Positions 263-24,236 of a DNA stretch of 34,605 nt are shown in pieces. Origin of the DNA: Clostridiales bacterium. GTDB lineage: Bacteria > Bacillota > Clostridia > Lachnospirales > Lachnospiraceae. Where the stretch lies: positions 1 through 34,605 of the forward strand of contig JAAZDA010000177.1 in assembly GCA_012512995.1 (NCBI GenBank), written 5' to 3'. The translations under genes and the position numbers were made by a program. The stretch's first letter is position 1; each line of letters begins with the position of its first letter. The notes under the pieces are model-generated. The model was not told the DNA's origin. It searched no databases and saw nothing but the letters and a program-made list of their open reading frames with translations.

Positions 263-307
263 AACGGGTATCTGTTCATTTGTTGATCAGATACCCGTTA
301 TTTTTTT
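263..307 (+). terminator. Intrinsic terminator-like hairpin
   Basis: 12-bp perfect stem AACGGGTATCTG (263-274) / CAGATACCCGTT (288-299) followed by ATTTTTTT. Confidence 0.6.
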
Positions 308-1679: not shown

Positions 1680-2568
1680 GATGTTTATGAATGACCAGGA
1701 ACGTGCTGAGAACCGACTCCCGAAGATCTACGATATTCCGATTGATGAAATCGATGACTTTCCGGACCATCCGTTCAAGGTTCGTCTAGACGAGGACATG
1801 GATCAGCTGGTTGAAAGCGTAAAGAGTCGTGGCGTCATTACTCCTGTCACCCTTCGTCAGAAAGAAGACGGCAGATACGAAATCGTATCCGGTCACAGAC
1901 GCAGAAAGGCCTGCGAGCTTGCCGGACTTGAAACGGTACCGGCTGAAATCAAAAACCTGACCAGAGATGAGGCCATTATTTTGATGGTTGAATCCAACCT
2001 GCAGCGTTCCGTGATTCTTCCAAGCGAGAAAGCCTTTTCTTACAAGATGAGGCTGGAGGCTATGACAAGGCAAGGACAACGTACAGACTTAACTTCGACA
2101 CCAGTGGAGTCGAAGTCTCGTGCAAATGAGGAACTAGGCAATCAGGTCGGAGAAAGCCGTGAACAAATCCGTCGTTACATCCGTCTTACTGAGCTTATTC
2201 CTGAACTTCTTGAGATGGTGGATGAAGGCAGGATTGCAATGCGGCCTGCCGTTGAGCTTTCTTATCTCAATGACATCGAACAGCAGGATCTGCTTCCAGC
2301 TATGGAGATTGCAGACGCCACGCCTTCTCACGTACAGGCCATCAAGATGCGACGGTTCTCAGAAGAAGGCAAACTCACACCAGAAGTCATTGAATCCATC
2401 ATGTGCGAAGAGAAACCCAATCAGAAGGAAAAGGTCAGCATTCGATATGAGGATGCCAAACGATACATTCCTTCAAATGTTCCGTATAAGGAGACTGGGG
2501 CATATATTCTGAAAGCGCTGGAATATTACCACCGTCACCTGGAACGAATGAGAGATGACGCAAGGTAA
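1633..2568 (+). CDS. parB: ParB/RepB/Spo0J-family partition protein
   Basis: ParB motif YEIVSGHRRRKA, ESNLQR and an HTH (ELGNQVGESREQIRRYIRL); TTG start with AGGAGG SD; overlaps the parA end. Confidence 0.93.
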   Translation: MRERPKIDLGLTGYDEMFMNDQERAENRLPKIYDIPIDEIDDFPDHPFKVRLDEDMDQLVESVKSRGVITPVTLRQKEDGRYEIVSGHRRRKACELAGLETVPAEIKNLTRDEAIILMVESNLQRSVILPSEKAFSYKMRLEAMTRQGQRTDLTSTPVESKSRANEELGNQVGESREQIRRYIRLTELIPELLEMVDEGRIAMRPAVELSYLNDIEQQDLLPAMEIADATPSHVQAIKMRRFSEEGKLTPEVIESIMCEEKPNQKEKVSIRYEDAKRYIPSNVPYKETGAYILKALEYYHRHLERMRDDAR

Positions 2569-2574
2569 AGTAAC

Positions 2575-2700
2575 CCCTACGCCAAGGGAGTAGTGTACCC
2601 TTTTGAAGAAAGGAGACTCGTTCCCCCTCTCACACTCTCCCCTTATTATCAACAAGCATCCTGACTACCTGAAAAGAAAGAAGATTCGCAGACTTGCTTA
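2575..2700 (+). other. oriT-like / relaxosome-like non-coding site
   Basis: C-rich tract CCCCCTCTCACACTCTCCCC, then CAACAAGC (2650-2657)...CTTGCT (2693-2698), the same arm pair seen on the minus strand upstream of mobC; contains CATCCTG (2657-2663), resembling the MOBP nic core YATCCTG. Confidence 0.35.
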
Positions 2701-2721
2701 TCAGAAAGCTATCCGTACAAT
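2694..2721 (+). promoter_or_regulatory. Putative sigmaA promoter for the lipoprotein gene
   Basis: TTGCTT (2694-2699) - 16 nt - TACAAT (2716-2721); SD GGAGGT before ATG 2744. Confidence 0.4.
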
Positions 2722-2743
2722 ATGACACTACGGAGGTGGCACT

Positions 2744-3487: not shown

Positions 3488-3502
3488 AACAAAACAGAAA
3501 AT

Positions 3503-3545
3503 GGCATGAAAGGGCATCGTAGAAATACGGTGCTTTTTTCATGCC
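3503..3545 (+). promoter_or_regulatory. GAAA-tetraloop hairpin before the adhesin SD (terminator/processing-like)
   Basis: GGCATGAAAGGGCATCGTA-GAAA-TACGGTGCTTTTTTCATGCC; the inner stem is followed by T6. Confidence 0.6.
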
Positions 3546-3562
3546 CTGAAGGAGGAAACTGA

Positions 3563-6500: not shown

Positions 6501-7783
6501 ATGAGCTTTCCGCTGTTACCTTTGGCCTGTATGCTGCTGAGGATCTGACCGCAGCTGACGAAACCATGATTCCTGAAGGCGGCCTCATTGAGATCCTGTC
6601 CGTAAGCGAAAACGGCAAGGATTCCGTAAAGTCGGATCTTCCTTTCGGCAGCTATTACGTGCAGGAAATCAGCACGGACTGCCACTATATTCTCTCTGAT
6701 GAGAAATATGAGATCACCTTCGATTATGCCGGTCAGGACGTAAACATCGTCGATCTGAAGGCAAACGAAGGCAAGAGCATCGTGAACGAATTGATCTATG
6801 GTGAAGTCCATGGCATGAAAAAGGATGACAATGGCAACGGTCTCGGCGGTGCGACCATCGGTCTTTTTACCACGGAAGGCAAGGAACCGATCATGACTAC
6901 CGTTTCTGCTGAAGACGGAAGCTTCTCCTTCGAGGATGTTCCTTACGGAGAATATGTTGTCCGTGAGATCAGCGCACCTGAGAAATACGTTATGGATGAT
7001 AAGCCTTATGACGTGAAGATCGACGCAGACGGTGCTGTCGTTGAAATCGAAATCATCAACAAGCTCATTCACGGCAATGTTCAGCTGACCAAGGTGGACG
7101 CCAACTATCCGGATCATCATCTGTCCGGCGCTGAGTTCGAGATCTACCAGAATGGCGAGCTTATCGGCAAGATGGAAGAACTCTCTGACGGCGTTTATGA
7201 GATGGATGATCTGCCTTATGGTGATTACACCCTGAAGGAAACCAAGGCTCCGGAAGGCTTCTACCTGGATGATAACACCTATGCCTTCTCCATCAAGGAA
7301 GACGGCAAGACTTTAATCGTTGAAAATGAAGCTGGTAAGGGGTTCATCAACAACGCTCAGGTTGGCGATATCCGTATCGAAAAGACATCTGAAGATGGCG
7401 TTTTGAAAGGCTTCACTTTCCGCGTGGAAGGCACCGATATTACCGGCAATGCTTTCAGCAAGGACTATGTGACTGACGAAAACGGTCAGATCCATATCGA
7501 GGGTCTCCGCGTCGGTGATTATGTGATCTCCGAGGTGTCCAACAAGGCTAACGAGAATTACGTCCTGCCTGACAATGTAACCGTCACGGTTCATGAGGGA
7601 AAGACCGTTGTAGCTAAGTTCTATAACGAACTGAAACCGGTCATTTCTGACATTCCTAAGACCGGTGACAGCACGAACCTGACGCTGTGGGCTTCTCTTG
7701 CGGGTGCTTCTCTCCTGGGAGCCTGCGCCGCAGCGTTTGTGACTTTCCGAAAAAAGAAAGAAGGTGGCAAACATGAGCGCTAA
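3563..7783 (+). CDS. Sortase-anchored surface adhesin: N-terminal Cys-Gln thioester domain (TED) plus multiple SpaA/CnaB-type isopeptide repeats
   Basis: Signal peptide (PAFA-AS); YCIEP and ATQLLVW motifs; repeated K..ED/G..F...G...Y.V.E..AP.GY domains (KTSEDG x3); C-terminal IPKTG + hydrophobic helix + RKKK. Confidence 0.9.
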   Translation: MKNILKKGISGLMAVLVCLTTFIGIGATPAFAASETAESYMVSYPRDGDAVQVYDQDTWGHSAKTYMNGWYTGTSNMTTIHCMDSYDGKVCYCIEPGIERNVGDTYTKFDENFWDNYPGSLNNTIEPYTIKLLLGRIMQYGYQGNISTSWKSQNSADADKMSHAIATQLLVWETVVGERDADFNHVSTGGCDTVKSVISKNHPLYSKINAYYDSIVSSVKNHTTLPSFMAGSKGKAQTVELEWDGSKYIATLTDSNNALSKFTFTASVTGVKCTVSGNKLIVTSDTAPADDVTITATKEQMRSGIIVWSDGAHRSSGVQDTVTYSASVSDPVKAYINLKVSYGSAKIIKTSEDGKVDGISFTITGEGINESVKTNIKGEITVDNLKPGTYTVTEQGYDKYEPQETRRVTVLAGQTATVSFNNVLRRGDLVVTKTSEDGLVEGVKFHLFGTSLSGIEVNEFAVTGKDGKAHFDDVLIGTGYTIEEIDTAVRYVVPANQTAAVEWNSVTNKSFSNVLKKFNVIVTKSDIENGNSQGDASLAGAKYGIYKGEQLVDTYVTDQNGQFTTTYYVCGNDWSIREIEPSEGYLLDTNSYHVGAEAENYTVELNSAPAVDVFEQVIKGNMTIIKHTDDGETQIETPEGGAEFSVYLKSSGSYDAAKDTEKDYLVCDENGFAQSKDMPYGIYTVHQVKGWEGRELMKDFDVFIAKNGATYRYLINNANFESFIKVIKVDAETGNTIPYAGAAFQTYTPEGELVSMTFTYPEITTIDTFYTDAAGMLITPERLEYGKGYSLIEVTAPYGYVLNSDPVKFDVTQDDSTEEGGITVVEVNKENMAQKGVIKISKFGEEFASVTENGGIYQPVYEVNGLAGATYEITAAEDIYTLDGTLRYSAGEVVDTVTTNEDGIAESKALYLGKYEICETEAPYGMVINNEIHSAELVYAGQEIEITETSASFTNDRQKAEVSLSKVMAQDTKFGIGSGNELSAVTFGLYAAEDLTAADETMIPEGGLIEILSVSENGKDSVKSDLPFGSYYVQEISTDCHYILSDEKYEITFDYAGQDVNIVDLKANEGKSIVNELIYGEVHGMKKDDNGNGLGGATIGLFTTEGKEPIMTTVSAEDGSFSFEDVPYGEYVVREISAPEKYVMDDKPYDVKIDADGAVVEIEIINKLIHGNVQLTKVDANYPDHHLSGAEFEIYQNGELIGKMEELSDGVYEMDDLPYGDYTLKETKAPEGFYLDDNTYAFSIKEDGKTLIVENEAGKGFINNAQVGDIRIEKTSEDGVLKGFTFRVEGTDITGNAFSKDYVTDENGQIHIEGLRVGDYVISEVSNKANENYVLPDNVTVTVHEGKTVVAKFYNELKPVISDIPKTGDSTNLTLWASLAGASLLGACAAAFVTFRKKKEGGKHER

Positions 7784-7859
7784 AGCGATCATCGGAATCT
7801 GCCTCGTGGTATTCATTGTCGCGGGGCTGATCTTCCTAAAGCTCAGAAACAGAAAATAA
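7773..7859 (+). CDS. 28-aa single-pass membrane peptide (MSAKAIIGICLVVFIVAGLIFLKLRNRK)
   Basis: Not in the ORF track; ATG overlaps the adhesin end with SD GAAGGTG; clean TM helix plus basic tail. Confidence 0.6.
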   Translation: MSAKAIIGICLVVFIVAGLIFLKLRNRK

Positions 7860-7871
7860 TGGACAAACTAA

Positions 7872-7899
7872 GGGCAGCATCTGAAATACGGTGCTGCCC
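7872..7899 (+). promoter_or_regulatory. Hairpin sharing a 13-mer with the 3503-3545 hairpin
   Basis: GGGCAGCATC-TGAAATAC-GGTGCTGCCC followed by GGTTTT and TGAAGGAGG SD. Confidence 0.55.
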
Positions 7900-7923
7900 G
7901 GTTTTATGAAGGAGGTAATGCTT

Positions 7924-8175
7924 ATGGGAATGTTTCCTGATGAGAAATATGTGGAGGACCTCAGAAAGAGATTTCCTGAGGGCTGCAGGATCTGCCTTGA
8001 CTATATGGGCGACGATCCGCGTCCCATTCCTCCCGGAACCAAAGGAACGGTGAAGCACGTCGATGATATCGGCACAGTCCACTGCGACTTTGATAACGGC
8101 AGGCGTCTCGGCCTGGTACCCGGTGAGGATTCCTTTCACAGGATCAAAGAGAAAGACAGGGGTGATGAGCGATGA
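7924..8175 (+). CDS. DUF4314-family small protein
   Basis: Recalled signature: P.G.RI.L..M.DDP.PIPPGTKGTV..VDDIGTVH..FDNGR.LGLVPGEDSF; start placed at ATG 7924 after GGAGGT. Confidence 0.85.
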   Translation: MGMFPDEKYVEDLRKRFPEGCRICLDYMGDDPRPIPPGTKGTVKHVDDIGTVHCDFDNGRRLGLVPGEDSFHRIKEKDRGDER

Positions 8176-8921
8176 GTATTGAGCTTACGATTCGTCCTAC
8201 CACCCCGACGGAGGACATGTACACCTATACTCAGTCCTCGCAGATTCAGGGGCAGACAGGCTGCATCGGCCATCTGAGAGCCGATATGGATTCCAACGGA
8301 GCAGGCTTCTTCTCAACCTGGGATGATCATCGCGGATATCTCAAGACGGATCAGTTCAAGGAAGAGTTCGATCAGGTGATCAATCGCCTGCGCTTCAGTG
8401 TCGGTGATGAAAACGCTATCCGGCATGAAGACGGTGACTGCTTCCTGAAGAACAGATCCGCACTTGCTCAGTATTGCTGGAGTCAGCCCTCTGCCCGAAT
8501 GAAGACGGACGAAGAAAACTACGGTTTCCGAGTGGATACTGACAACTACACCTATATGATGAGACTCAACCCGAACAAGGGCGTTTATAACTTGTACTGC
8601 TACTGCTACCGGCGTGACTGGCTGGATCAGCATCTGCATAATGCGGAGCGTGGTATCCGGTTCATTGATAGTCATTACAACAACCTGTTCAAGGTTCCGG
8701 ATGGCGGGAAGGTGCGGGTCGCGTATTCGGACGGCGAGGTACGGGATGTGGCCTGCCGCTATATCGATGAGTATCATCTGGAGTTCGGCGGTGACAGCTG
8801 CAATCTGCTACATATCTGCGAACTGGCAGAAAAAATGGAGAAGAACGGTCACAAAATCGAGCCTATCGATGTGATGCCGGAACCTGAAAAGAAAAGCAGA
8901 AACAGAGGTGAGGCTCGATGA
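8172..8921 (+). CDS. Conserved ICE hypothetical protein (two small domains)
   Basis: 249-aa ORF coupled by ATGA overlaps at both ends; motifs GCIGHLRAD, YNLYCYCY and IRFIDSHYNNLF.VPDGG typical of Clostridiales ICE proteins. Confidence 0.8.
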   Translation: MSIELTIRPTTPTEDMYTYTQSSQIQGQTGCIGHLRADMDSNGAGFFSTWDDHRGYLKTDQFKEEFDQVINRLRFSVGDENAIRHEDGDCFLKNRSALAQYCWSQPSARMKTDEENYGFRVDTDNYTYMMRLNPNKGVYNLYCYCYRRDWLDQHLHNAERGIRFIDSHYNNLFKVPDGGKVRVAYSDGEVRDVACRYIDEYHLEFGGDSCNLLHICELAEKMEKNGHKIEPIDVMPEPEKKSRNRGEAR

Positions 8922-9100
8922 GATATTTCGTTGATATCAAAGCTACAAGCTACGCAACCATTACGGTGGAGGCAGATTCCCTTGAGGAAGCCGAAGAAAA
9001 GGCGCAGGAAGCCTATTACAACGGAATGGTCGAATGGAGGAACTGCGATCTCGATATCGAGGCGCGGATCATGGAAAAGGATCGAGGTGAAGAAAGATGA
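8918..9100 (+). CDS. DpnD/PcfM-like small protein
   Basis: Y.V.I......I.VEADSLEEAEEKAQEAY pattern; ATGA coupling. Confidence 0.65.
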   Translation: MRYFVDIKATSYATITVEADSLEEAEEKAQEAYYNGMVEWRNCDLDIEARIMEKDRGEER

Positions 9101-9390
9101 TGGAAGATTACAAGCGTGAAAGCTTTTACGGTGATGACAATTTCAAGGACTATGAGTTCATTTCCGATGAAGGCACCTTTGAGTGCGAATACGTCGGTCG
9201 CTGGATGAACAAGGACGAAAACCTTGTGTGCTGCTTCGACTTTGATGACGGACGTAAGGTCCGCTCTATGGCCTGGCAGAACAACGGCTATTACAAGCTG
9301 GAGCAGATTCCTCTCGGAAGCAGGCTCCGCCTTGAATTCAAGATGTCCAATACCGGCAAAAACTACCTGAGAAAAGTAGTGATTCTCTGA
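9097..9390 (+). CDS. Hypothetical beta-rich protein (possible OB-fold)
   Basis: 97-aa coupled ORF; alternating hydrophobic strands, G.RLRLEFK....GKNYL. The fold is a guess. Confidence 0.7.
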   Translation: MMEDYKRESFYGDDNFKDYEFISDEGTFECEYVGRWMNKDENLVCCFDFDDGRKVRSMAWQNNGYYKLEQIPLGSRLRLEFKMSNTGKNYLRKVVIL

Positions 9391-9935
9391 TGGATAGCCG
9401 GGACAGACTGATATGGACCAGTCAACCTGACTTTGAAGAGTACCGGGAAGATCTCAAGGCAGACTTCCCGGAATGCTCTGAGGATGAGCTGCGCGATATC
9501 CTGCAGCAATCCAACTGGGACAGGCTGCAGTTTGATCGTGAGGAACTGGCCCATTTATATGATGACAGCATCCTAGTGATTGCGGATCTCGGCTTATGGG
9601 ACGGAAGACATACCGCCTATAAGGAAATCGAGTCCGGGAATCTCATGGATTGCTTTGAAACGTCCAGAGATACGCTGGATATTGAATGGTTCGTGGATAA
9701 GAACGGCGATCTTCGCTGCAATGATTATCACCACGATGGTACCAATCATTATCTCTACCGCGTATGGAAAGACAATATATCAGAGGCGCAGAAAGATAAT
9801 CTGCGCCTCAAACTTTATCACGGAGACTACAGCCGAGCGGATGTTACCCGCTGTACGAAAAGGTTGGGAGATGAAATCGGGAAGGTTTACGGCTGGACCT
9901 TCCCGGAAAGAAAGGAAAGGAGTTGCGAAAGATGA
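9390..9935 (+). CDS. Conserved ICE hypothetical protein
   Basis: 181-aa ORF, TGATG-coupled; ADLGLWDGR and HHDGTNHYLYR motifs. Confidence 0.8.
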   Translation: MDSRDRLIWTSQPDFEEYREDLKADFPECSEDELRDILQQSNWDRLQFDREELAHLYDDSILVIADLGLWDGRHTAYKEIESGNLMDCFETSRDTLDIEWFVDKNGDLRCNDYHHDGTNHYLYRVWKDNISEAQKDNLRLKLYHGDYSRADVTRCTKRLGDEIGKVYGWTFPERKERSCER

Positions 9936-10360
9936 TAGATACTTGTGTATGCTGCGGCGTGTATGTGCCTGAAGGCTTTATGATCTGCCCCGGATGCTTG
10001 AAATACGAGCCGAAGATCCCGGCAAATAAGAAGGACGCCATTCTCGAATACCTGAGAAAGTACCACTGCGGAAGACGCAACGCGGTTCACAGCAAAGAGC
10101 TTCAGGAGATCTTCAAACTGGATGACCGTGCGGTACGCCGCAAAATCAGTGCTCTTCGTCAGGAAGGACATCCGATCTGCAGCGGAGATATGGGCTACTA
10201 CTATGCCGAAAGCCAGAAGGAAATCAATTCGACCGTCAATAGGCTCAATGATCTCGTGACGGGAGTTGCTAATGCCAGAACCGGTCTGCTTTATGCTCAG
10301 GTTATGGAACCGGTCATGACCGTAAAGGTCACCCTTAATATGGCAGGCGGTGATGCTTAA
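9932..10360 (+). CDS. Zinc-ribbon + winged-HTH DNA-binding protein
   Basis: N-terminal CVCCG..CPGC, then SKELQEIFKLDDRAVRRKISALRQEGHPICS...GYYY (HTH_11-like); ATG 9932 overlaps the upstream TGA. Confidence 0.75.
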   Translation: MIDTCVCCGVYVPEGFMICPGCLKYEPKIPANKKDAILEYLRKYHCGRRNAVHSKELQEIFKLDDRAVRRKISALRQEGHPICSGDMGYYYAESQKEINSTVNRLNDLVTGVANARTGLLYAQVMEPVMTVKVTLNMAGGDA

Positions 10361-11397
10361 TGCCGGAGGATATTTATAAGCAGGATCGCTTCTATGTGAA
10401 TCTGGATCAGGACGAGATCATTTGGATGTACCAAAACCCTGATGCCGTCAGCGGCGACCAGTTTGTGTGTAACAGATTCGGAGTCGAGCTGCTCAGAGAA
10501 GCGATACGTGAGTGTCCCATTGGTCCTGACAGCGGTTTTGAGGCATATCCGGTCTATGATTATATCGAGGAACATAGCAGACAATACCTGACGGATGTGG
10601 GCGATTTCCTTTATCCGTTGGAGGAAGAAAAGTTTAGGAGCGAGCCTGTAGCCGTTGCTCAAGGGCACGGCACCTTGGAAACATTACAGCTGTTGTTCCA
10701 GGCAAAAGAACTGATCGATCAGTTCTGCGTGGAAGAGTTCGGAAGTCCCGCCGATTTCAAAGATCTGAAAAAGGTGGGGCTTGCTTATACCACTACGGAA
10801 GATGATAAGCATGAGATCCAGGCCTATGCAAACCTCATTGATCATCAGACAGAGGTTTATCTGGACGGTGAAATCATAGCTACTCAAAAAGTAGAATCCC
10901 TGAAGCAATACGTAGAGAACCTTCTCCCGTATTTGGACTTCAACGAGCTCGTTGACATTCCCGAATGGGTAATGGATGAGCATCTTGGCCGTGGAGCTTT
11001 CCGTGAGGACCTGCAGTTCATGCAGCATCATGCCTGGGGAAATACCTATGACCTTTGTTTTGAGGTCAGCAGCTATATGTATGGCGGCGGACTGGCGATT
11101 GAGCTTTATGACAGAACAGACGGTGATTTGGAACCGTATTCAAATCTCACTGTGAATATCGATGCCAGACTTTCGGGACCGGATTGTGCTTTTGTGGACA
11201 CCAATAATTTTGGTACTGCTGAGGAACTGATTCGGAACAACAAGCTGGGTAAGCCTACCGGAAGGATCGGATACAGCGGCTACTGTTCCTATCCTGAGTA
11301 TCGCTTTGATATGAAGGAAATCTACAAGTACTGCATCAACCCGGATGACATTCCGGCTATTGAGCCGAAAAAGAAAGAAAGGAGCTATGAGAGATGA
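10360..11397 (+). CDS. Multi-domain acidic protein with C-terminal DUF4313 domain
   Basis: C-terminal Y..GGLAIEL....EPY..LTVN....AFVDTNN......LGKPTGR...SGYC.YPEY.F recalled as DUF4313. Confidence 0.75.
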   Translation: MPEDIYKQDRFYVNLDQDEIIWMYQNPDAVSGDQFVCNRFGVELLREAIRECPIGPDSGFEAYPVYDYIEEHSRQYLTDVGDFLYPLEEEKFRSEPVAVAQGHGTLETLQLLFQAKELIDQFCVEEFGSPADFKDLKKVGLAYTTTEDDKHEIQAYANLIDHQTEVYLDGEIIATQKVESLKQYVENLLPYLDFNELVDIPEWVMDEHLGRGAFREDLQFMQHHAWGNTYDLCFEVSSYMYGGGLAIELYDRTDGDLEPYSNLTVNIDARLSGPDCAFVDTNNFGTAEELIRNNKLGKPTGRIGYSGYCSYPEYRFDMKEIYKYCINPDDIPAIEPKKKERSYER

Positions 11398-11480
11398 AGA
11401 AAGAAATCATTTTTATAGACGAGGACACCCTCACTCCGGAAGAATGGGAGGCGATTGCAGATGAGCAGACCGAAGAATAA
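11394..11480 (+). CDS. 28-aa acidic peptide (MKKEIIFIDEDTLTPEEWEAIADEQTEE)
   Basis: Not in the ORF track; ATGA overlap with the upstream stop, SD AAGGAG (11379-11384), overlaps the ArdC start. Confidence 0.5.
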   Translation: MKKEIIFIDEDTLTPEEWEAIADEQTEE

Positions 11481-12468
11481 AGAAGAATACCGCGTAGAGC
11501 TTGCGGAAGCCTTTGCTCATGTGCTTGAGGAAAAGGGCCTTGAATGGAAGAAAGAATGGACCGGTCAGGGCGGCGGTGCTCCGCATAATGGAATTACCAA
11601 AGCCTGTTACCGGGGAACCAATGCTTTCTGGCTGTCCCTGATTTCCATGATGAAGGGCTACGACGATCCCCGTTGGGTGACCATGATCCAGATCATGGAT
11701 AACGATGGAAAATACCATCCGAACCAGCAGTGGCATCTGAAGAAAGGCAGCAAGGCCACTTATGTTGAATACTGGTATCCTTACGACACCAAAGATAAGA
11801 AAGCTCTCACCTGGGAACAGTACAAGGATGCCCTGGCGAACGGCAGAGACGAAAAGGAATTTACTCTCTCCACCAGATACACGGCAGTATTTAATGCTCG
11901 TGATGTGGAAGGCATGCCGGAGTTTCAGATCCAGAGCAACCCGGAAGTGTCTCAGGATGAACTGATCCGAAAGCTTTCCGAAGGAATGGGCGTGGAGATC
12001 TTTACTGATGGCGGTGATCAGGCGTACTATTCACCGTCACAGGATAAGATTCATCTACCGACTCCTGAATCCTTCATCAGCGAATATGCCTTCAATGCTA
12101 CGGCACTGCATGAGCTTTCACACAGCACCGGCCATCCTACAAGGCTGAACAGACCGCAGAGCGCTTTCTTCGGAACCAGCCAGTATGCATATGAGGAGCT
12201 TGTGGCGGAGATGTGTTCCTGCTTTATGGGAGCTGAGCTTCATACAGAAGCTACTCCTGAGCATATCGATAACCACAAAGCCTATGTGCAATCCTGGATC
12301 CAGGCGATTACGGAAAAGCCTGAAACGCTGGTTAAGGCAATCAAAGACGCTCAGGCAGCTGCCAACTATATGGACTTCAAAGCCGGGCTTATTACTGAAG
12401 TGGAATACGCCAAGACCTGCGGCTCAGTAATGGAGGTCAAGCCGAAGGACAGAAGTCTGGAACGCTGA
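11461..12468 (+). CDS. ardC: ArdC-like antirestriction protein (DUF1738 ssDNA-binding + zincin/MPTase domain)
   Basis: W.K.W....P.N..T...YRG.N..L, DPRW.T..Q, VFNA; HELSHSTGH (HExxH) and YAYEELVAE; AYVQSW; ATG 11461 after GGGAGG. Confidence 0.88.
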   Translation: MSRPKNKEEYRVELAEAFAHVLEEKGLEWKKEWTGQGGGAPHNGITKACYRGTNAFWLSLISMMKGYDDPRWVTMIQIMDNDGKYHPNQQWHLKKGSKATYVEYWYPYDTKDKKALTWEQYKDALANGRDEKEFTLSTRYTAVFNARDVEGMPEFQIQSNPEVSQDELIRKLSEGMGVEIFTDGGDQAYYSPSQDKIHLPTPESFISEYAFNATALHELSHSTGHPTRLNRPQSAFFGTSQYAYEELVAEMCSCFMGAELHTEATPEHIDNHKAYVQSWIQAITEKPETLVKAIKDAQAAANYMDFKAGLITEVEYAKTCGSVMEVKPKDRSLER

Positions 12469-12533
12469 AATCGCACATTTGTAATGGTTGATTCTTCCGT
12501 GTACCATAAAGAAAAAACGGAAGGTGAAGATAT

Positions 12534-12689
12534 ATGTTTAAGAAGAAAGCTGAAAAAAGAGTCGTTGAATTGAATCCTTCTGAGGTTCGCCTTCTGCTTA
12601 CTGCGCTGATGAATTTCAGAAACAAGGTTGCAAAGACGGGAAGACCTACGGAAGATATCAATGAGCTGATCCTGATGGTCACCAAGTAA
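12534..12689 (+). CDS. 51-aa protein, paralog of the 18094-18291 ORF
   Basis: MFKKKAEKRVVELNPSEVRLLLTALMNFRNKVAKTGRPTEDINELILMVTK; SD GAAGGTG; not in the ORF track. Confidence 0.8.
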   Translation: MFKKKAEKRVVELNPSEVRLLLTALMNFRNKVAKTGRPTEDINELILMVTK

Positions 12690-12754
12690 AAGAGACTCTA
12701 TAATACGATAACGAGCCGTGAAGTTTATGAGAAATCAGAACTTCACGGCTCGTT
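12676..12754 (+). promoter_or_regulatory. Putative promoter plus 16-bp perfect hairpin
   Basis: TGGTCA - 17 nt - TATAAT (12699-12704); stem AACGAGCCGTGAAGTT (12710-12725) / AACTTCACGGCTCGTT (12739-12754) with inner TGA-GAAA-TCA. Confidence 0.5.
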
Positions 12755-12777
12755 CTATATACGGAGGTGGAACTACG

Positions 12778-13263
12778 ATGATTTATTTCGGAGTGTTGTT
12801 TTTGGCAAAGGTTTTGGACAACGCTCTATCAACTACAAAAACCATAATGATACAGAGAAGCCGGTGGATCCTTGCGGGCATTGCGGTGATTCTGTCCGAC
12901 TTCATTTATTACTGGATTACGAAGCGCGTGGTATCTGCCGACGGAGAGCTGGCAATGCTCATTGTTTCCGTCGCGGGCGGTATCGGCTGCAGTCTGGCCT
13001 GTCTGGTCAGCGATAAACTTTCCAAGGACAGGACCTACGTAAATGTAATCATGTCAGATAATCTGGAAGCTATGAAAGCATTCCGTGATTTTCTGGCGGA
13101 GCATCATATCACCAATGTGGCAGCCGACACATATACCCTCGACTGGAATAAGAAAACAATTTCTATTACTGCATACCCGGAGACAAAGGCTGAGAGTCGC
13201 CTGATCCGCGATTATATCGCAAACAGTCATTTGAAGTTCAAGCTTGTGGTTCAGCCGGGTTAA
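12778..13263 (+). CDS. Membrane protein, UPF0316/DUF5698-like (three TM helices + soluble C-terminal domain)
   Basis: LFLAKVLDNALSTTKTIMIQR resembles the UPF0316 N-terminus; GGIGCSL helix; ATG 12778 after GGAGGT. Confidence 0.7.
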   Translation: MIYFGVLFLAKVLDNALSTTKTIMIQRSRWILAGIAVILSDFIYYWITKRVVSADGELAMLIVSVAGGIGCSLACLVSDKLSKDRTYVNVIMSDNLEAMKAFRDFLAEHHITNVAADTYTLDWNKKTISITAYPETKAESRLIRDYIANSHLKFKLVVQPG

Positions 13264-13279
13264 GAGAAAGAGAGGTCAC

Positions 13280-13612
13280 ATGAACAGTGAAGAACTGAAT
13301 GTCGCGGTCTATAACAAAATGAACCGCGAGCAGGCGATCTATACCGACTGGCTTCTGACACTTCCTCCTGAAGAGATCCTTCAACATTCCTATGAGTATA
13401 CAGTCCGTCAGGATATTCTGTTTGCCATGGAATACATGGAGCTTCAGCCGAAGCAGTGCGAGGCGCTTCTGAAATCCAAGGACATCATCGGTGACGTGCT
13501 TTCCGACTTCAACAAGATCGAGACCGGATATATGGATATCATCCGGGATTGCATAGAAGGCCGTGCGGACAAGATGATCTGTCTGGAAGCAGAACGCAAG
13601 GAGGCAAGATAA
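13280..13612 (+). CDS. DUF3848-family protein
   Basis: Y.KM..EQ..Y..WLL..PPEEIL.H.YEYTVR.DIL recalled as DUF3848; ATG 13280 after GAGGT. Confidence 0.8.
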   Translation: MNSEELNVAVYNKMNREQAIYTDWLLTLPPEEILQHSYEYTVRQDILFAMEYMELQPKQCEALLKSKDIIGDVLSDFNKIETGYMDIIRDCIEGRADKMICLEAERKEAR

Positions 13613-14559
13613 TGCCATATGTAGATCAGCAGCTTCTGGAGCAGGCACGGCAGGTGGATCTTCTGAGTTATCTCCAAAGCAGTGACCCTGGAAACCTTGT
13701 GAGGATCTCCGGGAACAACTACTGTACGAGAGAACATGACAGCTTGAAGATTTCTAACGGCAAGTGGTACTGGTTCTCCAGAGGCATCGGCGGTGTTTCC
13801 GCCGTAGATTACCTGATGAAAGTAAAAGAATATTCCTTCCCCGATGCGGTGGAGGCAGTGCTAGGCAGGACGGTTGCAGAAAGGCCGTCCTTTTCTTATG
13901 CCAGAAGGCCTGCAGAGCCGAGGAAACTCCTGATGCCGGAGCTGGTAAAGGATCCGGTACAGGCCAGAAAGTATTTAGAAAAGCGTGGAATTCATCACGA
14001 AATTATTGATTATTGCGTGAAACACAGCCTGCTTTTCGAGACAAGTGAGTATCACAATGCGGTGTTCGTCGGCTACGACGCTCACGGCATTGCAAGATAC
14101 GCCGCCATGCGCGGCACAATATCAGCCTACAAGGGAGAGGTCACCGGGAGTGACAAACACTTCTCGTTTTCAATGTCGGAAACCCCTGACGCGGAACACG
14201 TCCATCTTTTCGAGTCCGCTATTGACGCGATGAGCTTTGCGTCCCTTGCGGTGATGGAAGGACGTGACTGGAAACAGGACGCCCTCCTTTCCCTTGCAGG
14301 CGTATTCCAAACCAAACGAAAGGATGTGGTGCCTGTTGCTCTAAGTCAATACCTGACCGATCATCCGTCGGTAAAAGAGATCCACCTTCATCTTGATAAC
14401 GATGAGGTGGGACGCGGAGCGGCTGCCGGAATCGTCAGAGGGCTCTCGGATCGATATCAGGTCCTTGATGAGCCTCCGGATTCCCGCTACAAGGATATGA
14501 ACGATCAGGTCAAAGACAAAGTAAGAATGATGAAAAGGAAGGAGGAACCTGAACGATGA
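13612..14559 (+). CDS. DUF3991 + Toprim domain primase-like protein
   Basis: EHDSLKIS..KWYWFSRGIGG, YL.KRGI, LFESAIDAMS, LHLDND.VGR, KD.ND Toprim motifs. Confidence 0.88.
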   Translation: MPYVDQQLLEQARQVDLLSYLQSSDPGNLVRISGNNYCTREHDSLKISNGKWYWFSRGIGGVSAVDYLMKVKEYSFPDAVEAVLGRTVAERPSFSYARRPAEPRKLLMPELVKDPVQARKYLEKRGIHHEIIDYCVKHSLLFETSEYHNAVFVGYDAHGIARYAAMRGTISAYKGEVTGSDKHFSFSMSETPDAEHVHLFESAIDAMSFASLAVMEGRDWKQDALLSLAGVFQTKRKDVVPVALSQYLTDHPSVKEIHLHLDNDEVGRGAAAGIVRGLSDRYQVLDEPPDSRYKDMNDQVKDKVRMMKRKEEPER

Positions 14560-15290
14560 TGGAAATTTCAATTTACCAGATTGATCTGGACAAGGATGAG
14601 AACCGTGTTGCTTTTATCGGTCACGAAGCCCTGGAGCATTATCAGGGCACTTCGGAGATCGATTCCGCAATCTATGAAAAGGTCTACGAAGGAACCGTTG
14701 ATGCAAAGGATCTTGAAGATGTCTTCCGCATTTTCAACGTAGATCAGCCGGAGGATTACAGAGGCAGATCGCTCTCTGTTTCCGATATCGTTGAGACTGT
14801 TGATGAGAGAACCGGAGAATGTACCTGGCATTACTGCGATACCATCGGATTCAAGGATGTTGCTTTTGACCCCGATAAGGTATCGGAAATGAGGGCAACT
14901 CAGATCACGGTCGTATACATGGAACCCGGAAAGCTTGCAAAAACCGCCGAAATTGGCACCAGACTTGAAGACTTGCAGGCCGCTGTCGGCGGCTGCATCG
15001 AGGCTTTCTATCCCTTTGAGGATGAAGTCTGTATCGTCTGTAATGACGAAGGCAAGTTCAACGGCATGCAGCTGAACCGTGGCATCTACGGTGAAGACGG
15101 CAAACTCATGGACATTATTGCCGGACCGTTTTTCATCTGTGACTGCAGCGGTGAGAATTTTGGTTCTCTCAGCCAGGAGCAGCTTGAGCGATACGAAAAA
15201 CTCTATAAGAAGCCGGAGCGCTTCTACAGACAACACGGCGAGATTATCGCCGTACCTTATGAACCCAGAGAAAAATCTAACGAAAGATGA
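14556..15290 (+). CDS. YodL-domain + DUF3846 fusion protein
   Basis: YEKVY.G...LEDVF.IFN...PEDYRGRSLSVSDIV (YodL); LEDLQAAVGG.IE..VCNDEGK..G..LNR..DIIAGPFFI (DUF3846). Confidence 0.88.
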   Translation: MMEISIYQIDLDKDENRVAFIGHEALEHYQGTSEIDSAIYEKVYEGTVDAKDLEDVFRIFNVDQPEDYRGRSLSVSDIVETVDERTGECTWHYCDTIGFKDVAFDPDKVSEMRATQITVVYMEPGKLAKTAEIGTRLEDLQAAVGGCIEAFYPFEDEVCIVCNDEGKFNGMQLNRGIYGEDGKLMDIIAGPFFICDCSGENFGSLSQEQLERYEKLYKKPERFYRQHGEIIAVPYEPREKSNER

Positions 15291-15300
15291 GGAGAATGAT

Positions 15301-15504
15301 ATGGCGAAATTTGATGTATTCGTAACCATGCTCGATGTCGAGCATGCCATTGTGGAAGCGAAGGATGAGCAGGAAGCTCGTGAGAAGGTTGACCATTATA
15401 TTGACCATCTGATTCAGAAGGACATTATGGACCCTGGTGATCTCATGAATGCAAATATCGAAATCAGACCAGTCGAGTGGAACCGTCTGGAAGGCCTTGA
15501 GTAA
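15301..15504 (+). CDS. Small DpnD/PcfM-like protein (67 aa)
   Basis: MAKFDVFV......IVEAKDEQEAREKV; ATG 15301 after GAGGAG (the track ORF from 15079 is over-extended). Confidence 0.65.
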   Translation: MAKFDVFVTMLDVEHAIVEAKDEQEAREKVDHYIDHLIQKDIMDPGDLMNANIEIRPVEWNRLEGLE

Positions 15505-15600
15505 AAGGCACGGGTCCGTGGCATTTTACCAGCCAGCAAGCATCGCCTTTGGGAACCCAAAGTCAGCTTGTTGGGGTAGCCCCAAACCCTTACTGAAGAA
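15505..15600 (-). other. Putative origin of transfer (oriT)
   Basis: Non-coding gap directly upstream of mobC-relaxase with clustered inverted repeats CACGG/CCGTG (15509-15520), CTTTGGG/CCCAAAG (15547-15562), TTGGGG/CCCCAA (15571-15585); the minus strand reads CAACAAGC...CTTGCT. Confidence 0.65.
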
Positions 15601-15616
15601 ATCGAGGTGAACACAA

Positions 15617-15931
15617 GTGAGGACAAGAGAATATAGCCTGCATCTTCGTATGACACAGGCAGAGATGAGCCTGCTGAGAAAGCAGGCATCAAAGGCAGGG
15701 CTGAAGCCGCAGGCATATATTCTTGCCTTGCTGAAAGATAAGCCGGTTAAAGAGCTTCCTCAAATGGAGTTCTATGACGTGCTTAAGGTTTTACGACAAA
15801 TCAGCCTGAACATGAATCAGATTGCTGTGAAAGCAAATGCCATCGGCTTTGTGGACACGGCTGAGTACTGGAAGAATGTCGATGCGGTTCAGGCGGCTAT
15901 CAGCGAAATAAAGGAGGCGGTGAGAAACTGA
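15617..15931 (+). CDS. mobC: Relaxosome accessory protein MobC
   Basis: RHH-like N-terminus and L.QI..NMNQIA..AN motif; directly upstream of the relaxase. Confidence 0.9.
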   Translation: MRTREYSLHLRMTQAEMSLLRKQASKAGLKPQAYILALLKDKPVKELPQMEFYDVLKVLRQISLNMNQIAVKANAIGFVDTAEYWKNVDAVQAAISEIKEAVRN

Positions 15932-17361
15932 TGGCAACAACTTCAATATGGCGGGTCAAAGGATATCTCAGTAAGGTCCTGCTTTACGCGGAGAATCCGG
16001 ACAAGACCACGGACCCGCATCCGGTCGAAGTTCCAAAAGGCGTGAATCTGAACGCTTTGGAAGATGTCATTTCCTATGCGAAACGAGAGGATGCCACAGA
16101 GCAGCGGCGCTTTGTAAGCGGTGTCAATTGCACTCCGGAAAATGCCCGTGAGGTGATGATGCGAACCAAGCAACAGTTTGAAAAGCTGGGCGGGACGATT
16201 GCTTATCATGGATACCAGTCCTTCAAAGAAGGCGAGGTTACTCCGGAGATAGCTCACCAGATCGGGAAGAAACTTGCGGAGGAATTATGGGGCGACCAAT
16301 ACGAGGTGCTGGTCACTACCCATGTGGACAAAGAGTCTCATATCCATAATCATTTCGTCCTGAACACAGTATCCTTTGTGGACGGTATCAAGTATCACCG
16401 TACCAAAGAGGACTATCAGGCGATGCGGGATGCTTCCGACAGACTCTGCCGGGAATACGGCCTTTCCGTTGTGAAGCATCCGGAAGGCCGTGGAAAGAAC
16501 TACGGCGAATGGAGAGCCGAACAGAATGGCAAGCCCACGTATCGGGATCGCATCAAGCGTGATATTGATACGGCCATTTCCATGTCTCTGACAGATAATG
16601 AATTCTTCCGTAATCTGAAGGACATGGGTTATGAGATCAAATGGGAAGGAAAGCACAAAGAGCTACAGCACCCCTCTCTCAAACCCAAAGGCGCGAAAAA
16701 GTATTTCCGCTTTGACCGATTGGGTGAGGAATACAGTCTCGATGAAATCTACAATCGCATTCTGGAGAACATCCGGCGGAAGGATCCATTTCCTGAAGAA
16801 ACGCAGGAGGAGGTTCGTAAATATCGCCATGAGCATCCTCCGAAGGTGGATCTCGGAGGCCTGACCAAACTTTATTACTACTACTGCTATGAACTGCATA
16901 TTATCGTCAGATACCCGACTTCCGTAAGCCGGGTATCTCATTTTATGAGGGAGGATCTTATGAAGCTGGATCACTTGGATGAACAGAGCCGGTTCCTGGC
17001 AACAAACAAGATCCAGACGATGGATGATATCGCTGCCTACAGAGAAAGCACAGGATCGGAAATCGAAAGGCTGAAGGCTGAGAGAAAAGATCTTCGCAAT
17101 GAACTTAAACGTGTGCTTCGGAGCGGCAACGAAGATGCGGCTTTGGCAGTAAAAATGAAAATAGCAGACACTTCTGCCAAATTGAAAAAGCTTCAGGATT
17201 CTCTTGTAATCTGCGACAGTGTTGAAGAACGATCCACGCAGATGCAGGCAGAGCTTGGAGATATTCGAAAACAAACTGGAGAAAAGGAGGTAGATAACGA
17301 TGAGCAGTTATTCGGGAGAAGCAGCGGAACAAGTCGTGAGGATGAGCCTAAACGGCGTTGA
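15931..17361 (+). CDS. Relaxase/mobilization nuclease (MOBP-type)
   Basis: YAENPDKT, AYHGYQSF..GEVTPE.AH.IG, THVDKESHIHNHFVLN (HUH 3H motif). Confidence 0.95.
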   Translation: MATTSIWRVKGYLSKVLLYAENPDKTTDPHPVEVPKGVNLNALEDVISYAKREDATEQRRFVSGVNCTPENAREVMMRTKQQFEKLGGTIAYHGYQSFKEGEVTPEIAHQIGKKLAEELWGDQYEVLVTTHVDKESHIHNHFVLNTVSFVDGIKYHRTKEDYQAMRDASDRLCREYGLSVVKHPEGRGKNYGEWRAEQNGKPTYRDRIKRDIDTAISMSLTDNEFFRNLKDMGYEIKWEGKHKELQHPSLKPKGAKKYFRFDRLGEEYSLDEIYNRILENIRRKDPFPEETQEEVRKYRHEHPPKVDLGGLTKLYYYYCYELHIIVRYPTSVSRVSHFMREDLMKLDHLDEQSRFLATNKIQTMDDIAAYRESTGSEIERLKAERKDLRNELKRVLRSGNEDAALAVKMKIADTSAKLKKLQDSLVICDSVEERSTQMQAELGDIRKQTGEKEVDNDEQLFGRSSGTSREDEPKRR

Positions 17362-18097
17362 AGTCGCTGCAAAGATCAGCGGCAAAGCAGCCGAACGGCT
17401 GGCTGTTTTGCTGTATGCGGTCCTGACAGACCAGAAGAAAACCAGAGGCAAGATCCGCCTTTCCAACATGCTGAAAAGCGGTAAGGAACTGAAGGTATTC
17501 GCGGTAAGAGATCAGGACCTTGCAAAGTTCTGTGAGGAAGCCAAGAAATACGGTGTTCTGTACTGCGTACTGAAGGATGCGAATGCCGATGACGGTCTGA
17601 CGGACATCATGGTACGTGCGGAAGACGCCAGCAAAATCAACCGCATCTTTGAGCGCTTCGGCCTGGCTGTTGCCGAGATGGGCACTGTTAAGACCGCTAT
17701 CGAGCAGAATAAGGAGGTGCCGCTAGATATAGAAGGAACGGAAAAGGAAGTCCCGGAGCGGGTACAGACCGTGGATGACAAGCTGGATCAGTTCCTTGAT
17801 TCAGTGACCGAACCGAAAGAAAATCCTACGGCGCAGAAGGCGGAAACCGAAAACCCCACCATGGCCCGGACTGGGAAGTCCCGTCAGTCCGAGCCTTCAT
17901 CCGCGAGCAGAAAGAGCCGGTCAGAAGGCGAAACTGAAAGAAGTGCCAGCAGCCGTCCTTCCGTAAGAAAAGAGATGGAGGAGATCCGTGCGGAACAGGG
18001 ACAGCAGAAAGGACGCGAACGGGAGGAACGTGTTCCCAATGTGGAGCCACCGCATATCCCCGTTCCCGTTAAGAAAGACGAGAAGGAGGTAAGATGA
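17300..18097 (+). CDS. PcfB-family (DUF3801) protein
   Basis: F...AKKYGVLYCVLKD......DIMVRAEDASKINRI motif; sits between relaxase and coupling protein. Confidence 0.85.
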   Translation: MSSYSGEAAEQVVRMSLNGVEVAAKISGKAAERLAVLLYAVLTDQKKTRGKIRLSNMLKSGKELKVFAVRDQDLAKFCEEAKKYGVLYCVLKDANADDGLTDIMVRAEDASKINRIFERFGLAVAEMGTVKTAIEQNKEVPLDIEGTEKEVPERVQTVDDKLDQFLDSVTEPKENPTAQKAETENPTMARTGKSRQSEPSSASRKSRSEGETERSASSRPSVRKEMEEIRAEQGQQKGREREERVPNVEPPHIPVPVKKDEKEVR

Positions 18098-18291
18098 TGG
18101 CACCCGATGAAAAGGTAGTTGTGACGCTGGACAATTTTGAACAGCGTCTGATGGTAACCGGCCTTGCCGACTTTCGTAATGATCTTCTCAGAGCGGAAAA
18201 GCCTACTGAAGACGTGAACGCTCTGCTTCTGAAGGTCATAGATGCCCCAACGCAGAAAGAAAAAAAGAAGGCGGACCGTGAGGCAAGATAA
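18094..18291 (+). CDS. Small conserved ICE protein upstream of the coupling protein
   Basis: 65 aa, coupled; LD.FE..L....L..FRN.L....KPTEDVN.LLLKVIDAP. Confidence 0.8.
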   Translation: MMAPDEKVVVTLDNFEQRLMVTGLADFRNDLLRAEKPTEDVNALLLKVIDAPTQKEKKKADREAR

Positions 18292-20432: not shown

Positions 20433-20449
20433 TCCGGTTATCCCAAAAA

Positions 20450-20479
20450 CGGGGCGGCTCAGGTAACCGGGCCGTCCCG
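20450..20479 (+). promoter_or_regulatory. GC-rich intergenic hairpin after the pilin-like gene
   Basis: CGGGGCGGCTC-AGGTAACC-GGGCCGTCCCG directly before an AGGAGG SD; no U-tract. Confidence 0.55.
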
Positions 20480-20496
20480 GATAGGAGGTGAGATGA

Positions 20497-21333: not shown

Positions 21334-21341
21334 GGCGAATC

Positions 21342-24211: not shown

Positions 24212-24236
24212 GCCTGCTCTTTGATGGAGGTAACTT

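What the first reader, a model, noticed from the sequence alone, without database searches (positions are those of the whole stretch)
2545..18291. Shared C-terminal basic...[E/A]R tail on about 11 unrelated ICE proteins: candidate T4SS protein-translocation tag
Seen: C-termini are ParB RMRDDAR (2568), DUF4314 EKDRGDER (8175), RNRGEAR (8921), EKDRGEER (9100), RKERSCER (9935), KKERSYER (11397), ArdC KDRSLER (12468), DUF3848 ERKEAR (13612), primase KRKEEPER (14559), YodL REKSNER (15290), KKADREAR (18291), and more loosely PcfB KKDEKEVR (18097). Core consensus is [KR]-[DEN]-[RK]-[GS]-x-[EA]-R-stop. The 8175 and 9100 tails share 7 of 8 residues, yet 6 of those 7 use different codons (GAG AAA GAC AGG GGT GAT GAG CGA vs GAA AAG GAT CGA GGT GAA GAA AGA), which points to selection on the peptide. 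VirB2, VirB4, VirB6, PrgI, sortase, CHAP, MobC and the complete BREX proteins lack the tail. Known: Gram-negative T4SS substrates often carry positively charged, Arg-rich C-terminal signals, and primases (Sog/TraC), ParB-like proteins and SSB are co-transferred by some plasmids. Inference: the tail marks a protein cocktail delivered to the recipient, mostly proteins of unknown function. Caveat: SD plus ATGA overlaps bias ends toward G/E/R, but ParB, ArdC and YodL keep the tail without an overlapping credible downstream gene, and coupled genes ending at 9390 (RKVVIL) and 10360 (AGGDA) lack it.
Basis: partly seen in the sequence, partly recalled or inferred. Interest (0 to 1): 0.85.

Follow-up and report, generated by a model that had tools for sequence, protein, structure and literature searches.

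The report
Arginine end-tag on conjugation proteins
About half of the proteins of this self-transmitting bacterial DNA element end in the same short basic tail with a last arginine that relatives keep at the protein level, and the tail likely serves as an address label that sends them into the mating partner through the element's own transfer machine.

Summary
The tails are real. 15 of 29 ICE genes end in Arg and 12 in [E/A]R. The rest of the genome has 103 and 17 of 1,860. Host genes ending in an SD-like motif plus ATGA end in Arg in 1 of 45 cases, so gene overlap is not the cause.

In 19 related elements, recurrent soluble proteins end in Arg 145 of 199 times, machine/surface proteins 2 of 117. 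Where no gene overlaps, the Arg stays, with all six codons. ArdC keeps it in 120 of 120 homologs.

The tail follows the element, not the family or host. DUF4314 lacks it in 14 phage-like loci and takes the local tail type in ICEs; one host carries elements with different tails.

Best reading (0.6): a C-terminal substrate signal read by the element's T4SS, likely VirD4. No binding or transfer is shown.

The scan noted this tag before on other DNA (e1-2645653). Not found in print in 10 searches. A new variant of known T4SS C-terminal signals.

The parts
1653..1679 (+).
   Evidence: 5 of 6 clade homologs end in Arg
2542..2568 (+). ParB tail ERMRDDAR*, 175 nt from next gene
   Evidence: 9 of 9 homologs end in Arg, 8 of 8 without a near gene
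7757..7783 (+). Sortase-anchored adhesin end KEGGKHER*: look-alike produced by overlap with a 28-codon ORF, not part of the tag set
   Evidence: 0 of 4 homologs end in Arg
8149..8175 (+). DUF4314 tail EKDRGDER*
   Evidence: tail absent from 14 phage-like DUF4314 loci
8895..8921 (+). Tail SRNRGEAR* of 249-aa unknown protein (8172-8921)
   Evidence: 5 of 5 homologs end in Arg
9074..9100 (+). DpnD/PcfM-like protein tail EKDRGEER*
   Evidence: clade DpnD/PcfM family 3 of 4 Arg; pCF10 PcfM lacks it
9909..9935 (+). Tail RKERSCER* of 181-aa unknown protein
   Evidence: 4 of 5 homologs end in Arg
11371..11397 (+). DUF4313 protein tail KKERSYER* (ATGA overlap with a 28-codon acidic ORF)
12442..12468 (+). 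ArdC tail PKDRSLER*, 65 nt from next gene
   Evidence: 120 of 120 listed homologs end in Arg
12534..12689 (+). 51-aa paralog of the 18094 protein that ends without a tail (internal control)
   Evidence: 49% identity over 43 aa
13586..13612 (+). DUF3848 tail EAERKEAR*
   Evidence: 5 of 5 homologs end in Arg
14533..14559 (+). DUF3991/Toprim primase-like tail KRKEEPER*
   Evidence: 28 of 28 distinct DNA tails end in Arg in close relatives; 10 of 15 in the diverse set
15264..15290 (+). YodL-DUF3846 tail PREKSNER*
   Evidence: 5 of 5 homologs end in Arg
17335..17361 (+). Relaxase end REDEPKRR*, inside a 62-nt overlap with pcfB; Arg end only partly conserved
   Evidence: 10 of 20 PcfB-coupled relaxases end in Arg, none in [E/A]R
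17954..18097 (+). PcfB (DUF3801) C-terminus: RPSVRKEM helix, linker, tail KKDEKEVR*
   Evidence: 19 of 19 end in Arg; helix and disordered tail predicted
18265..18291 (+). 65-aa protein tail KKADREAR*, dual-coded with the VirD4 start
   Evidence: 10 of 11 homologs end in Arg, all overlapping virD4
18278..20101 (+). VirD4 coupling protein, inferred reader of the tag; no tail
   Evidence: Pfam PF02534; 1 of 19 end in Arg
20088..26824 (+). T4SS genes VirB2-like, VirB6-like, PrgI, VirB4, sortase, CHAP hydrolase; no tails

Best explanation
The tail (a K/R-rich stretch, usually an acidic residue, then E/A and a last Arg) is a peptide kept by selection on many soluble proteins of this ICE clade, and it likely acts as a substrate signal that the element's own type IV secretion machine, probably the VirD4 coupling protein, would read to send these proteins into the recipient cell. 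Shown: enrichment, independence from gene overlap, synonymous variation under a fixed Arg, absence from machine, membrane, MobC and regulator proteins, and a tail type that follows the element. Inferred: the free carboxyl-terminal Arg docks on VirD4 (or on a VirD4-bound helper such as PcfB); the protein is unfolded and threaded; and the cargo (ParA, ParB, primase-like protein, SNF2/methylase, ArdC, RadC-like JAB protein, several DUFs) helps establish the incoming single strand before its genes are expressed. The ICE's own relaxase would often reach the machine by another route (internal signal, MobC or PcfB).
For: Host control: Arg end 103 of 1,860, [E/A]R 17 of 1,860; host genes ending in SD-like motif plus ATGA: 1 of 45 Arg, 0 [E/A]R. 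In 19 elements of the window's VirD4 clade (tree), with classes set without looking at tails: recurrent soluble proteins 145 of 199 Arg, 59 of 86 where the next gene is 20 nt or more away; machine/surface/MobC 2 of 117; 19 of 40 recurrent families are majority-Arg. Non-overlapped tails use all six Arg codons and all three stops; Lys at -1 is about 1%. In close relatives Arg is fixed while its codon varies: primase 28 of 28 (CGT13, CGC12, CGA3), SNF2 protein 18 of 18 (CGT9, CGG5, AGG4). ArdC 120 of 120 while -3, -4, -6, -8 vary. DUF4314: no Arg end in 14 of 14 phage-like loci, Met-rich tail in 5 loci with Met-tailed neighbours, EHEI beside EMEL/ELEV neighbours, ER in the window and G363. Same host, different elements: G463 0 of 31 vs 9 of 26 Arg ends, G315 3 of 27 vs 13 of 28. 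Relaxases not coupled to pcfB end in [E/A]R in 10 of 21. Known: C-terminal signals carry Cre through VirB/D4 and F systems, and ParA/ParB are transferred by pED208 in a TraD-dependent way (PMC10025392, PMC11288057, PMC8406263; passages).
Against: No binding or transfer data exist here. The ICE's own relaxase ends in Arg in 10 of 20 elements and never in [E/A]R. 5 of 15 primase homologs do not end in Arg; four of them end in RE or RT. PcfB, always next to relaxase/virD4 and possibly a donor-side helper, is tagged 19 of 19, so the tag need not mean export. One tagged family is about 2,500 aa. The tails are near neutral in net charge and do not fit the recalled Agrobacterium Arg consensus. ArdC on pLS20-family plasmids is described as expressed after arrival in the recipient, not delivered (PMC8708921, passages). 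The elements are related, so counts overstate independence.
Confidence: 0.6

Rival explanations
1. Docking tag without export: the tail binds an element-encoded hub (VirD4, VirB4, PcfB) and gathers the proteins at the donor's mating site or relaxosome, but they stay in the donor.
For: All sequence evidence for an element-encoded reader fits equally. PcfB and the 65-aa protein overlapping virD4 are nearly always tagged. [quoted passage not shown]
Against: Tagged families include anti-restriction, primase-like, Par and phage-shared DUF proteins with no evident donor role; MobC, the obvious relaxosome partner, is untagged (0 of 13). Twenty unrelated families converging on one free terminus suits a substrate queue better than a fixed complex (inference).
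Confidence: 0.18
2. Stability or degradation signal: the Arg end sets protein half-life through host proteases, as an extreme case of the general bacterial bias to K/R at C-termini.
For: K/R ends are enriched across bacteria and change expression up to fourfold through degradation (PMC7246954, abstract). Establishment proteins need transient activity (PMC8708921, passages).
Against: That bias favours Lys, which is about 1% at -1 here and the commonest last residue in the host (285 K vs 103 R). Elements in one host carry Arg, hydrophobic or Met-rich tails. No protease was among the 78 recurrent families scanned, apart from peptidase-like domains of cargo proteins.
Confidence: 0.1
3. Non-specific basic tails that help binding to DNA or membrane, arising separately in each family.
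For: Several tagged proteins bind nucleic acid (ParB, primase, ArdC, SNF2); positions -5 to -10 are K/R-rich.
Against: Does not explain the fixed E/A-R-COOH, the acidic residue at -4, near-neutral net charge, or the switch of tail type with element.
Confidence: 0.07
4. By-product of SD plus ATGA overlaps, or of a shared DNA module at gene junctions.
For: It does explain the R-[G/S] seen in five window tails, the K/E/G-rich run before host overlaps, the adhesin's HER end and possibly part of the dual-coded 18291 tail.
Against: 1 of 45 host SD+ATGA ends is Arg; 65 of 70 non-overlapped tails in tagged families end in Arg, only 9 of those 65 with an SD-like word, using six codons and three stops.
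Confidence: 0.03

Closest known systems
Arg-rich C-terminal translocation signal of Agrobacterium VirB/VirD4 substrates (VirF, VirE2, VirE3, VirD2) and RSF1010 MobA (Vergunst et al. 2005, as reviewed in PMC10025392 and PMC11288057)
   Same: Short C-terminal, Arg/Lys-containing, shared by unrelated proteins beside a VirD4/VirB4 system; also seen on relaxases.
   Different: Gram-positive-type ICE; the fixed feature is the very last residue with E/A before it; net charge near zero; 0 of 30 window proteins fit the recalled R-X7-R-X-R-X-R pattern; no transfer shown.
Protein co-transfer by F-type pED208 (ParA, ParB1/2, SSB, PsiA/B; 'conjutome'; PMC8406263, PMC11288057)
   Same: Same kinds of cargo (Par, DNA metabolism); dependence on the coupling protein; some C-terminal signals.
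   Different: F substrates have diverse, partly internal signals with no shared motif; here one visible motif marks about half of the recurrent families.
Proposed positively charged C-terminus of the pLS20 primase (PMC8557374, one passage)
   Same: Gram-positive conjugation, primase, C-terminal signal suggested from sequence.
   Different: One protein, no motif, no family-wide analysis or test.
Legionella E-block/DotM, Xanthomonas XVIPCD and Bartonella BID signals (PMC10025392 section 3.2)
   Same: C-terminal labels read at the coupling complex.
   Different: Different chemistry or whole folded domains; dedicated effector systems of Gram-negative bacteria.
Enterococcus pCF10 PcfB, PcfC, PcfD, PcfG
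   Same: PcfB-VirD4 gene pair and related accessory families (PcfM, ArdC-like PcfD).
   Different: No ER tails; PcfB, PcfD and PcfG end in GRKL, PTRF and KPKL, possibly a separate tail type (inference).

Membership tests
C-terminal T4SS translocation signal (VirB/VirD4 type) | Shared by unrelated soluble proteins encoded with a VirD4/VirB4 system and absent from machine subunits | tested here: met
   145 of 199 vs 2 of 117
C-terminal T4SS translocation signal (VirB/VirD4 type) | Short, terminal, modular and under peptide-level selection | tested here: met
   paralog pair with and without tail; DUF4314; low-confidence coil in PcfB model
C-terminal T4SS translocation signal (VirB/VirD4 type) | Present on the known substrate, the relaxase | tested here: inconclusive
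   PcfB-coupled relaxases 10 of 20 Arg and 0 [E/A]R; other relaxases 12 of 21 Arg and 10 of 21 [E/A]R
C-terminal T4SS translocation signal (VirB/VirD4 type) | Necessary and sufficient for VirD4-dependent transfer of a reporter | not testable with these tools
   needs mating assays
C-terminal T4SS translocation signal (VirB/VirD4 type) | Direct binding to the coupling protein or its adaptor | not testable with these tools
   needs binding assays or a solved complex
Agrobacterium Arg consensus (pattern recalled, not from a call) | R-X7-R-X-R-X-R near the C-terminus with clear net positive charge | tested here: not met
   0 of 30 window proteins match; net charge of last 10 residues -1 to +4
XVIPCD / BID / E-block signals | Shared folded C-terminal domain or Glu block | tested here: not met
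   No shared Pfam domain among tagged proteins; the upstream [KR]PS helix occurs in 11 of 499 clade proteins, 9 of them PcfB
General bacterial C-terminal K/R bias (PMC7246954) | Genome-wide, modest, favouring Lys | tested here: not met
   Confined to element proteins, Arg 92% vs Lys 1%; host ends K 285, R 103
ICE/conjugative element with VirD4, VirB4 and MOBP-type relaxase | Relaxase, MobC, VirD4, VirB4, VirB6-like, PrgI, wall hydrolase | tested here: met
   (VirB6 and VirB2 hits are weak, below Pfam cut-off)
ICE/conjugative element with VirD4, VirB4 and MOBP-type relaxase | Integrase and attachment sites (ICE rather than plasmid) | tested here: inconclusive
   No integrase in the window, which is a whole contig; relatives lie on chromosomal contigs and some carry recombinases

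The most novel reading that the evidence does not exclude
Gram-positive conjugative elements are protein injectors with a readable address code. Each ICE lineage tags a dozen or more of its proteins with its own C-terminal label (Arg here; hydrophobic or Met-rich ends in other lineages), read by its own coupling protein. Genes recruited from phages gain the local tag, and mobilizable relaxases copy it to hitchhike. The tag would then list each element's injected anti-defence cocktail directly from sequence and give a ten-residue handle for protein delivery between gut Firmicutes.
Probability: 0.4. Interest if true: 0.9.

Novelty: new variant of a known kind. Interest (0 to 1): 0.68.

Why it matters
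A 2025 review calls it a long-standing question whether Gram-positive T4SSs move proteins, and says nearly all known functions are limited to DNA transfer (PMC12857230, passages). This tag turns that question into a one-residue experiment. It predicts which uncharacterised ICE proteins (DUF4313, DUF4314, DUF3846, DUF3848, YodL, DpnD/PcfM, RadC-like) act in the recipient, which makes them anti-defence and establishment candidates. Lineage-specific tails offer a route to find the substrate-specificity site on coupling proteins. The element family was seen in 41 of 251 sampled genomes of the class searched (DUF3801 matches).

Tried and rejected
Co-folding of two VirD4 cytoplasmic domains with ArdC residues 302-335 gave no verdict (score 0.00, controls not run). 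It is not counted for or against binding.

The PcfB model (mean pLDDT 68.8, pTM 0.39) had no Foldseek match at E<=0.001, only weak ferredoxin-like folds. The PDB sequence search with the VirD4 profile found only Cag5 and TrwB.

A shared helix upstream of the tail was rejected for this clade except in PcfB. The adhesin's HER end was rejected as a tag.

The viral collection gave only 3 DUF4314 loci, two of them identical, none with an Arg end. Class-level searches around G133 and G181 were too small to help. Three recalled accessions for Gram-negative comparators (RSF1010, RP4) were not in the collections, so no such sequence was compared.

The careful VirD4 tree did not finish; the quick tree was used. 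Covariation between VirD4 residues and tail type was not attempted because five label changes give too little power. Paper searches returned nothing. A weak similarity of 15301-15504 to the DpnD/PcfM-like protein was not significant (E 0.11).
Full report
1. Setting. The window is a whole contig (C459) of a fragmented 2.4-Mb genome. From 855 to 26824 it holds one co-oriented conjugative module: ParA, ParB, a sortase-anchored adhesin, accessory genes (DUF4314, DpnD/PcfM-like, DUF4313, ArdC, DUF3848, DUF3991/Toprim, YodL-DUF3846), MobC, relaxase, PcfB (DUF3801), VirD4, VirB2-like, VirB6-like, PrgI, VirB4, sortase and CHAP, followed by BREX genes. No integrase lies in the window, so 'ICE' rests on relatives.

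2. Observation. All stated tails are present. By my count, 15 of 29 module genes end in Arg and 12 in [E/A]R. I wrote a simple gene caller (76% of the genome called as coding; starts are approximate, stops reliable).

3. Overlap artefact. In the window 6 of 6 ATGA-coupled genes end in Arg; in the host 1 of 57 does. Of 211 host genes ending in ATGA, 13 end in Arg and none in [E/A]R; of the 45 with an SD-like word in the last 22 nt, 1 ends in Arg. Overlap does give K/E/G-rich ends, and it explains the R-G or R-S in five window tails (8175, 8921, 9100, 9935, 11397; sequence) and the adhesin's HER (0 of 4 homologs). It does not give the last Arg.

4. Selection on the peptide. Eighty loci were fetched with the primase, mostly one close clade. 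For families with a majority of Arg ends, after dropping members under 80% of median length (primase 70 of 78 kept, SNF2 protein 32 of 38), the last residue is Arg in 28 of 28 and 18 of 18 distinct DNA tails. Its codon varies (CGT/CGC/CGA; CGT/CGG/AGG) and the next gene is mostly 70-80 nt away. The 120 best of 1,769 ArdC homologs (75-95% identity) all end in Arg, 109 in ER, while positions -3, -4, -6 and -8 vary.

5. Who carries it. I assembled 57 stretches of up to 40 kb around DUF3801 or primase matches. A quick VirD4 tree of 49 rows (the careful search did not finish) puts the window in a 19-element group (support 90). With classes defined without looking at tails, recurrent soluble proteins end in Arg in 145 of 199 cases (59 of 86 when the next gene is 20 nt or more away), machine, surface and MobC proteins in 2 of 117, recurrent membrane proteins in 5 of 11, and sporadic or flanking genes in 28 of 172. 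By family, 19 of 40 are majority-Arg: PcfB, ParA, ParB, primase-like, SNF2/methylase, RadC-like JAB, DUF3848, DUF6075, YodL-DUF3846, DpnD/PcfM and unknown proteins. RepA (0 of 4), recombinase (1 of 4), MobC (0 of 13), VirB4 (0 of 17) and a sigma-like regulator (0 of 3) lack it. In 20 tagged families chosen by eye, non-overlapped tails end in Arg 65 of 70 times with all six codons. Profile over 153 tails: -1 Arg 92%, Lys 1%; -2 Glu 58%, Ala 15%; -4 Asp/Glu 47%; -7 Lys/Arg 64%. The elements are kin and the stretches include flanks and nested elements, so these are descriptions, not independent trials.

6. The tail follows the element. In 26 elements of the other, short-PcfB group only 38 of 233 recurrent soluble proteins end in Arg; many end in a basic patch, an acidic residue and L/I/V/M, often after a [KR]PS helix, and Arg and hydrophobic ends can mix in one element. 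One host can hold both types: G463 0 of 31 vs 9 of 26 Arg ends, G315 3 of 27 vs 13 of 28; G321 and G301 also hold an element with Met-rich tails. DUF4314 was found at 26 places in 21 of 201 genomes (one weak match dropped). In 14 loci that share a phage-like neighbourhood (terminase and portal confirmed in the 5 tested; no conjugation hit in 20 kb) it never ends in Arg, and mostly stops at the domain edge. In 5 loci it ends in a Met-rich tail like its neighbours (VirB4 or VirD4 found near 3 of them), in 1 in EHEI beside EMEL and ELEV, in 1 (G363, this clade) in DMER; 4 loci are unclassified and not Arg-ended. Within the window, the 65-aa protein at 18094 has the tail and its 49%-identical paralog at 12534 stops without it. 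pCF10 has no ER tails; its PcfB, PcfD and relaxase end in GRKL, PTRF and KPKL.

7. Relaxases. The clade's own relaxases overlap pcfB by 17-62 nt and have Arg-rich ends, but only 10 of 20 end in Arg and none in [E/A]R. Relaxases not followed by pcfB end in Arg in 12 of 21 and [E/A]R in 10 of 21 (two share one tail); four end in a hydrophobic residue. I did not establish which of these belong to mobilizable elements. This is the main result against a universal requirement. F-plasmid TraI uses internal signals (PMC8406263, passages), so it is not fatal.

8. Mechanism. Shown: a modular, selected, Arg-specific C-terminal label whose type is set by the element. The components common to all elements are VirD4, VirB4, VirB6, PcfB and relaxase. 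From established T4SS biology, the coupling protein recruits substrates, often through C-terminal signals, and substrates are unfolded (PMC10025392 section 3.2, first part read). pED208 transfers ParA and ParB in a TraD-dependent way (PMC8406263, passages), and positively charged C-termini generally supported Cre transfer (PMC11288057, passages). The tagged set resembles establishment functions and excludes most donor-side replication, integration and regulation proteins. I put export through the T4SS at 0.6, docking without export at 0.18, stability control at 0.10, non-specific binding at 0.07 and artefact at 0.03. PcfB is predicted to have a small alpha/beta domain, a linker, one helix and a disordered tail; it may be cargo or an adaptor that lends its tag to the relaxase (speculation).

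9. Known and new. It works like the C-terminal signals of VirB/VirD4 substrates but fails the recalled Agrobacterium Arg pattern, and membership needs a transfer test. Ten searches of the held library listed no paper describing this tag. I read listings and abstract starts, passages of PMC12857230, PMC11288057, PMC8406263, PMC8708921 and PMC8557374, passages and one section of PMC10025392, and the abstract of PMC7246954; Vergunst 2005 is known only through those reviews and recall. Subscription papers and supplements were not seen. The nearest Gram-positive precedent is a one-line suggestion for the pLS20 primase. Earlier notes of this scan report the same Arg tag and sister tails in other genomes; they are unchecked AI notes, not support.

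10. Verdict. Real and under selection; mechanism plausible but untested. New variant of a known kind; interest 0.68.

Noticed in passing
window 15931-17361 / 17300: The relaxase overlaps pcfB by 62 nt; in 20 relatives the overlap is 17-62 nt, and several relaxases run on past an HEHR/YEQR-like point into the pcfB reading region.
   Followed up: partly
window 11394-11480: 28-codon acidic ORF coupled by ATGA to the DUF4313 gene and overlapping the ArdC start; a similar ORF lies at the same place in L002 (5913-6056).
   Followed up: partly
window 7773-7859: 28-codon hydrophobic ORF with a basic end overlapping the adhesin stop; likely a small membrane peptide.
   Followed up: no
window 12710-12754: Perfect 16-bp inverted repeat with a 13-nt spacer upstream of the membrane-protein gene at 12778; that gene with a small upstream ORF may be an inserted module.
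   Followed up: no
window 263-299 and 777-815: Two long hairpins upstream of parA, in an AT-rich region with runs of A and T; possible promoter, origin or centromere-like region.
   Followed up: no
window 15505-15616: Intergenic stretch before mobC, the usual place of oriT; no repeat found at the settings used.
   Followed up: partly
window 27062-33971: Low-GC cargo: Cro-like HTH, BrxA, BrxB, BrxC, DUF4145 and HEPN pEK499_p136 genes; the BREX locus is cut by the contig end.
   Followed up: no
G000 contig C191: Second element fragment in the same genome with ParA/ParB ending in GVR and SMER but PcfB ending in ERDL.
   Followed up: partly
L116 (pCF10) 9857-16974: PcfB, PcfD and the relaxase PcfG end in GRKL, PTRF and KPKL: a possible pCF10-type end tag.
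   Followed up: no
L233, L235, L236, L240, L244, L254, L255: Elements whose proteins end in Met/Gly-rich tails (MGM, GMSM, ITM), including DUF4314.
   Followed up: partly
L100-L101, L003, L117, L147, L169: Many elements of the clade carry a second tagged gene of about 290 aa between pcfB and virD4 that the window lacks (no Pfam hit).
   Followed up: no
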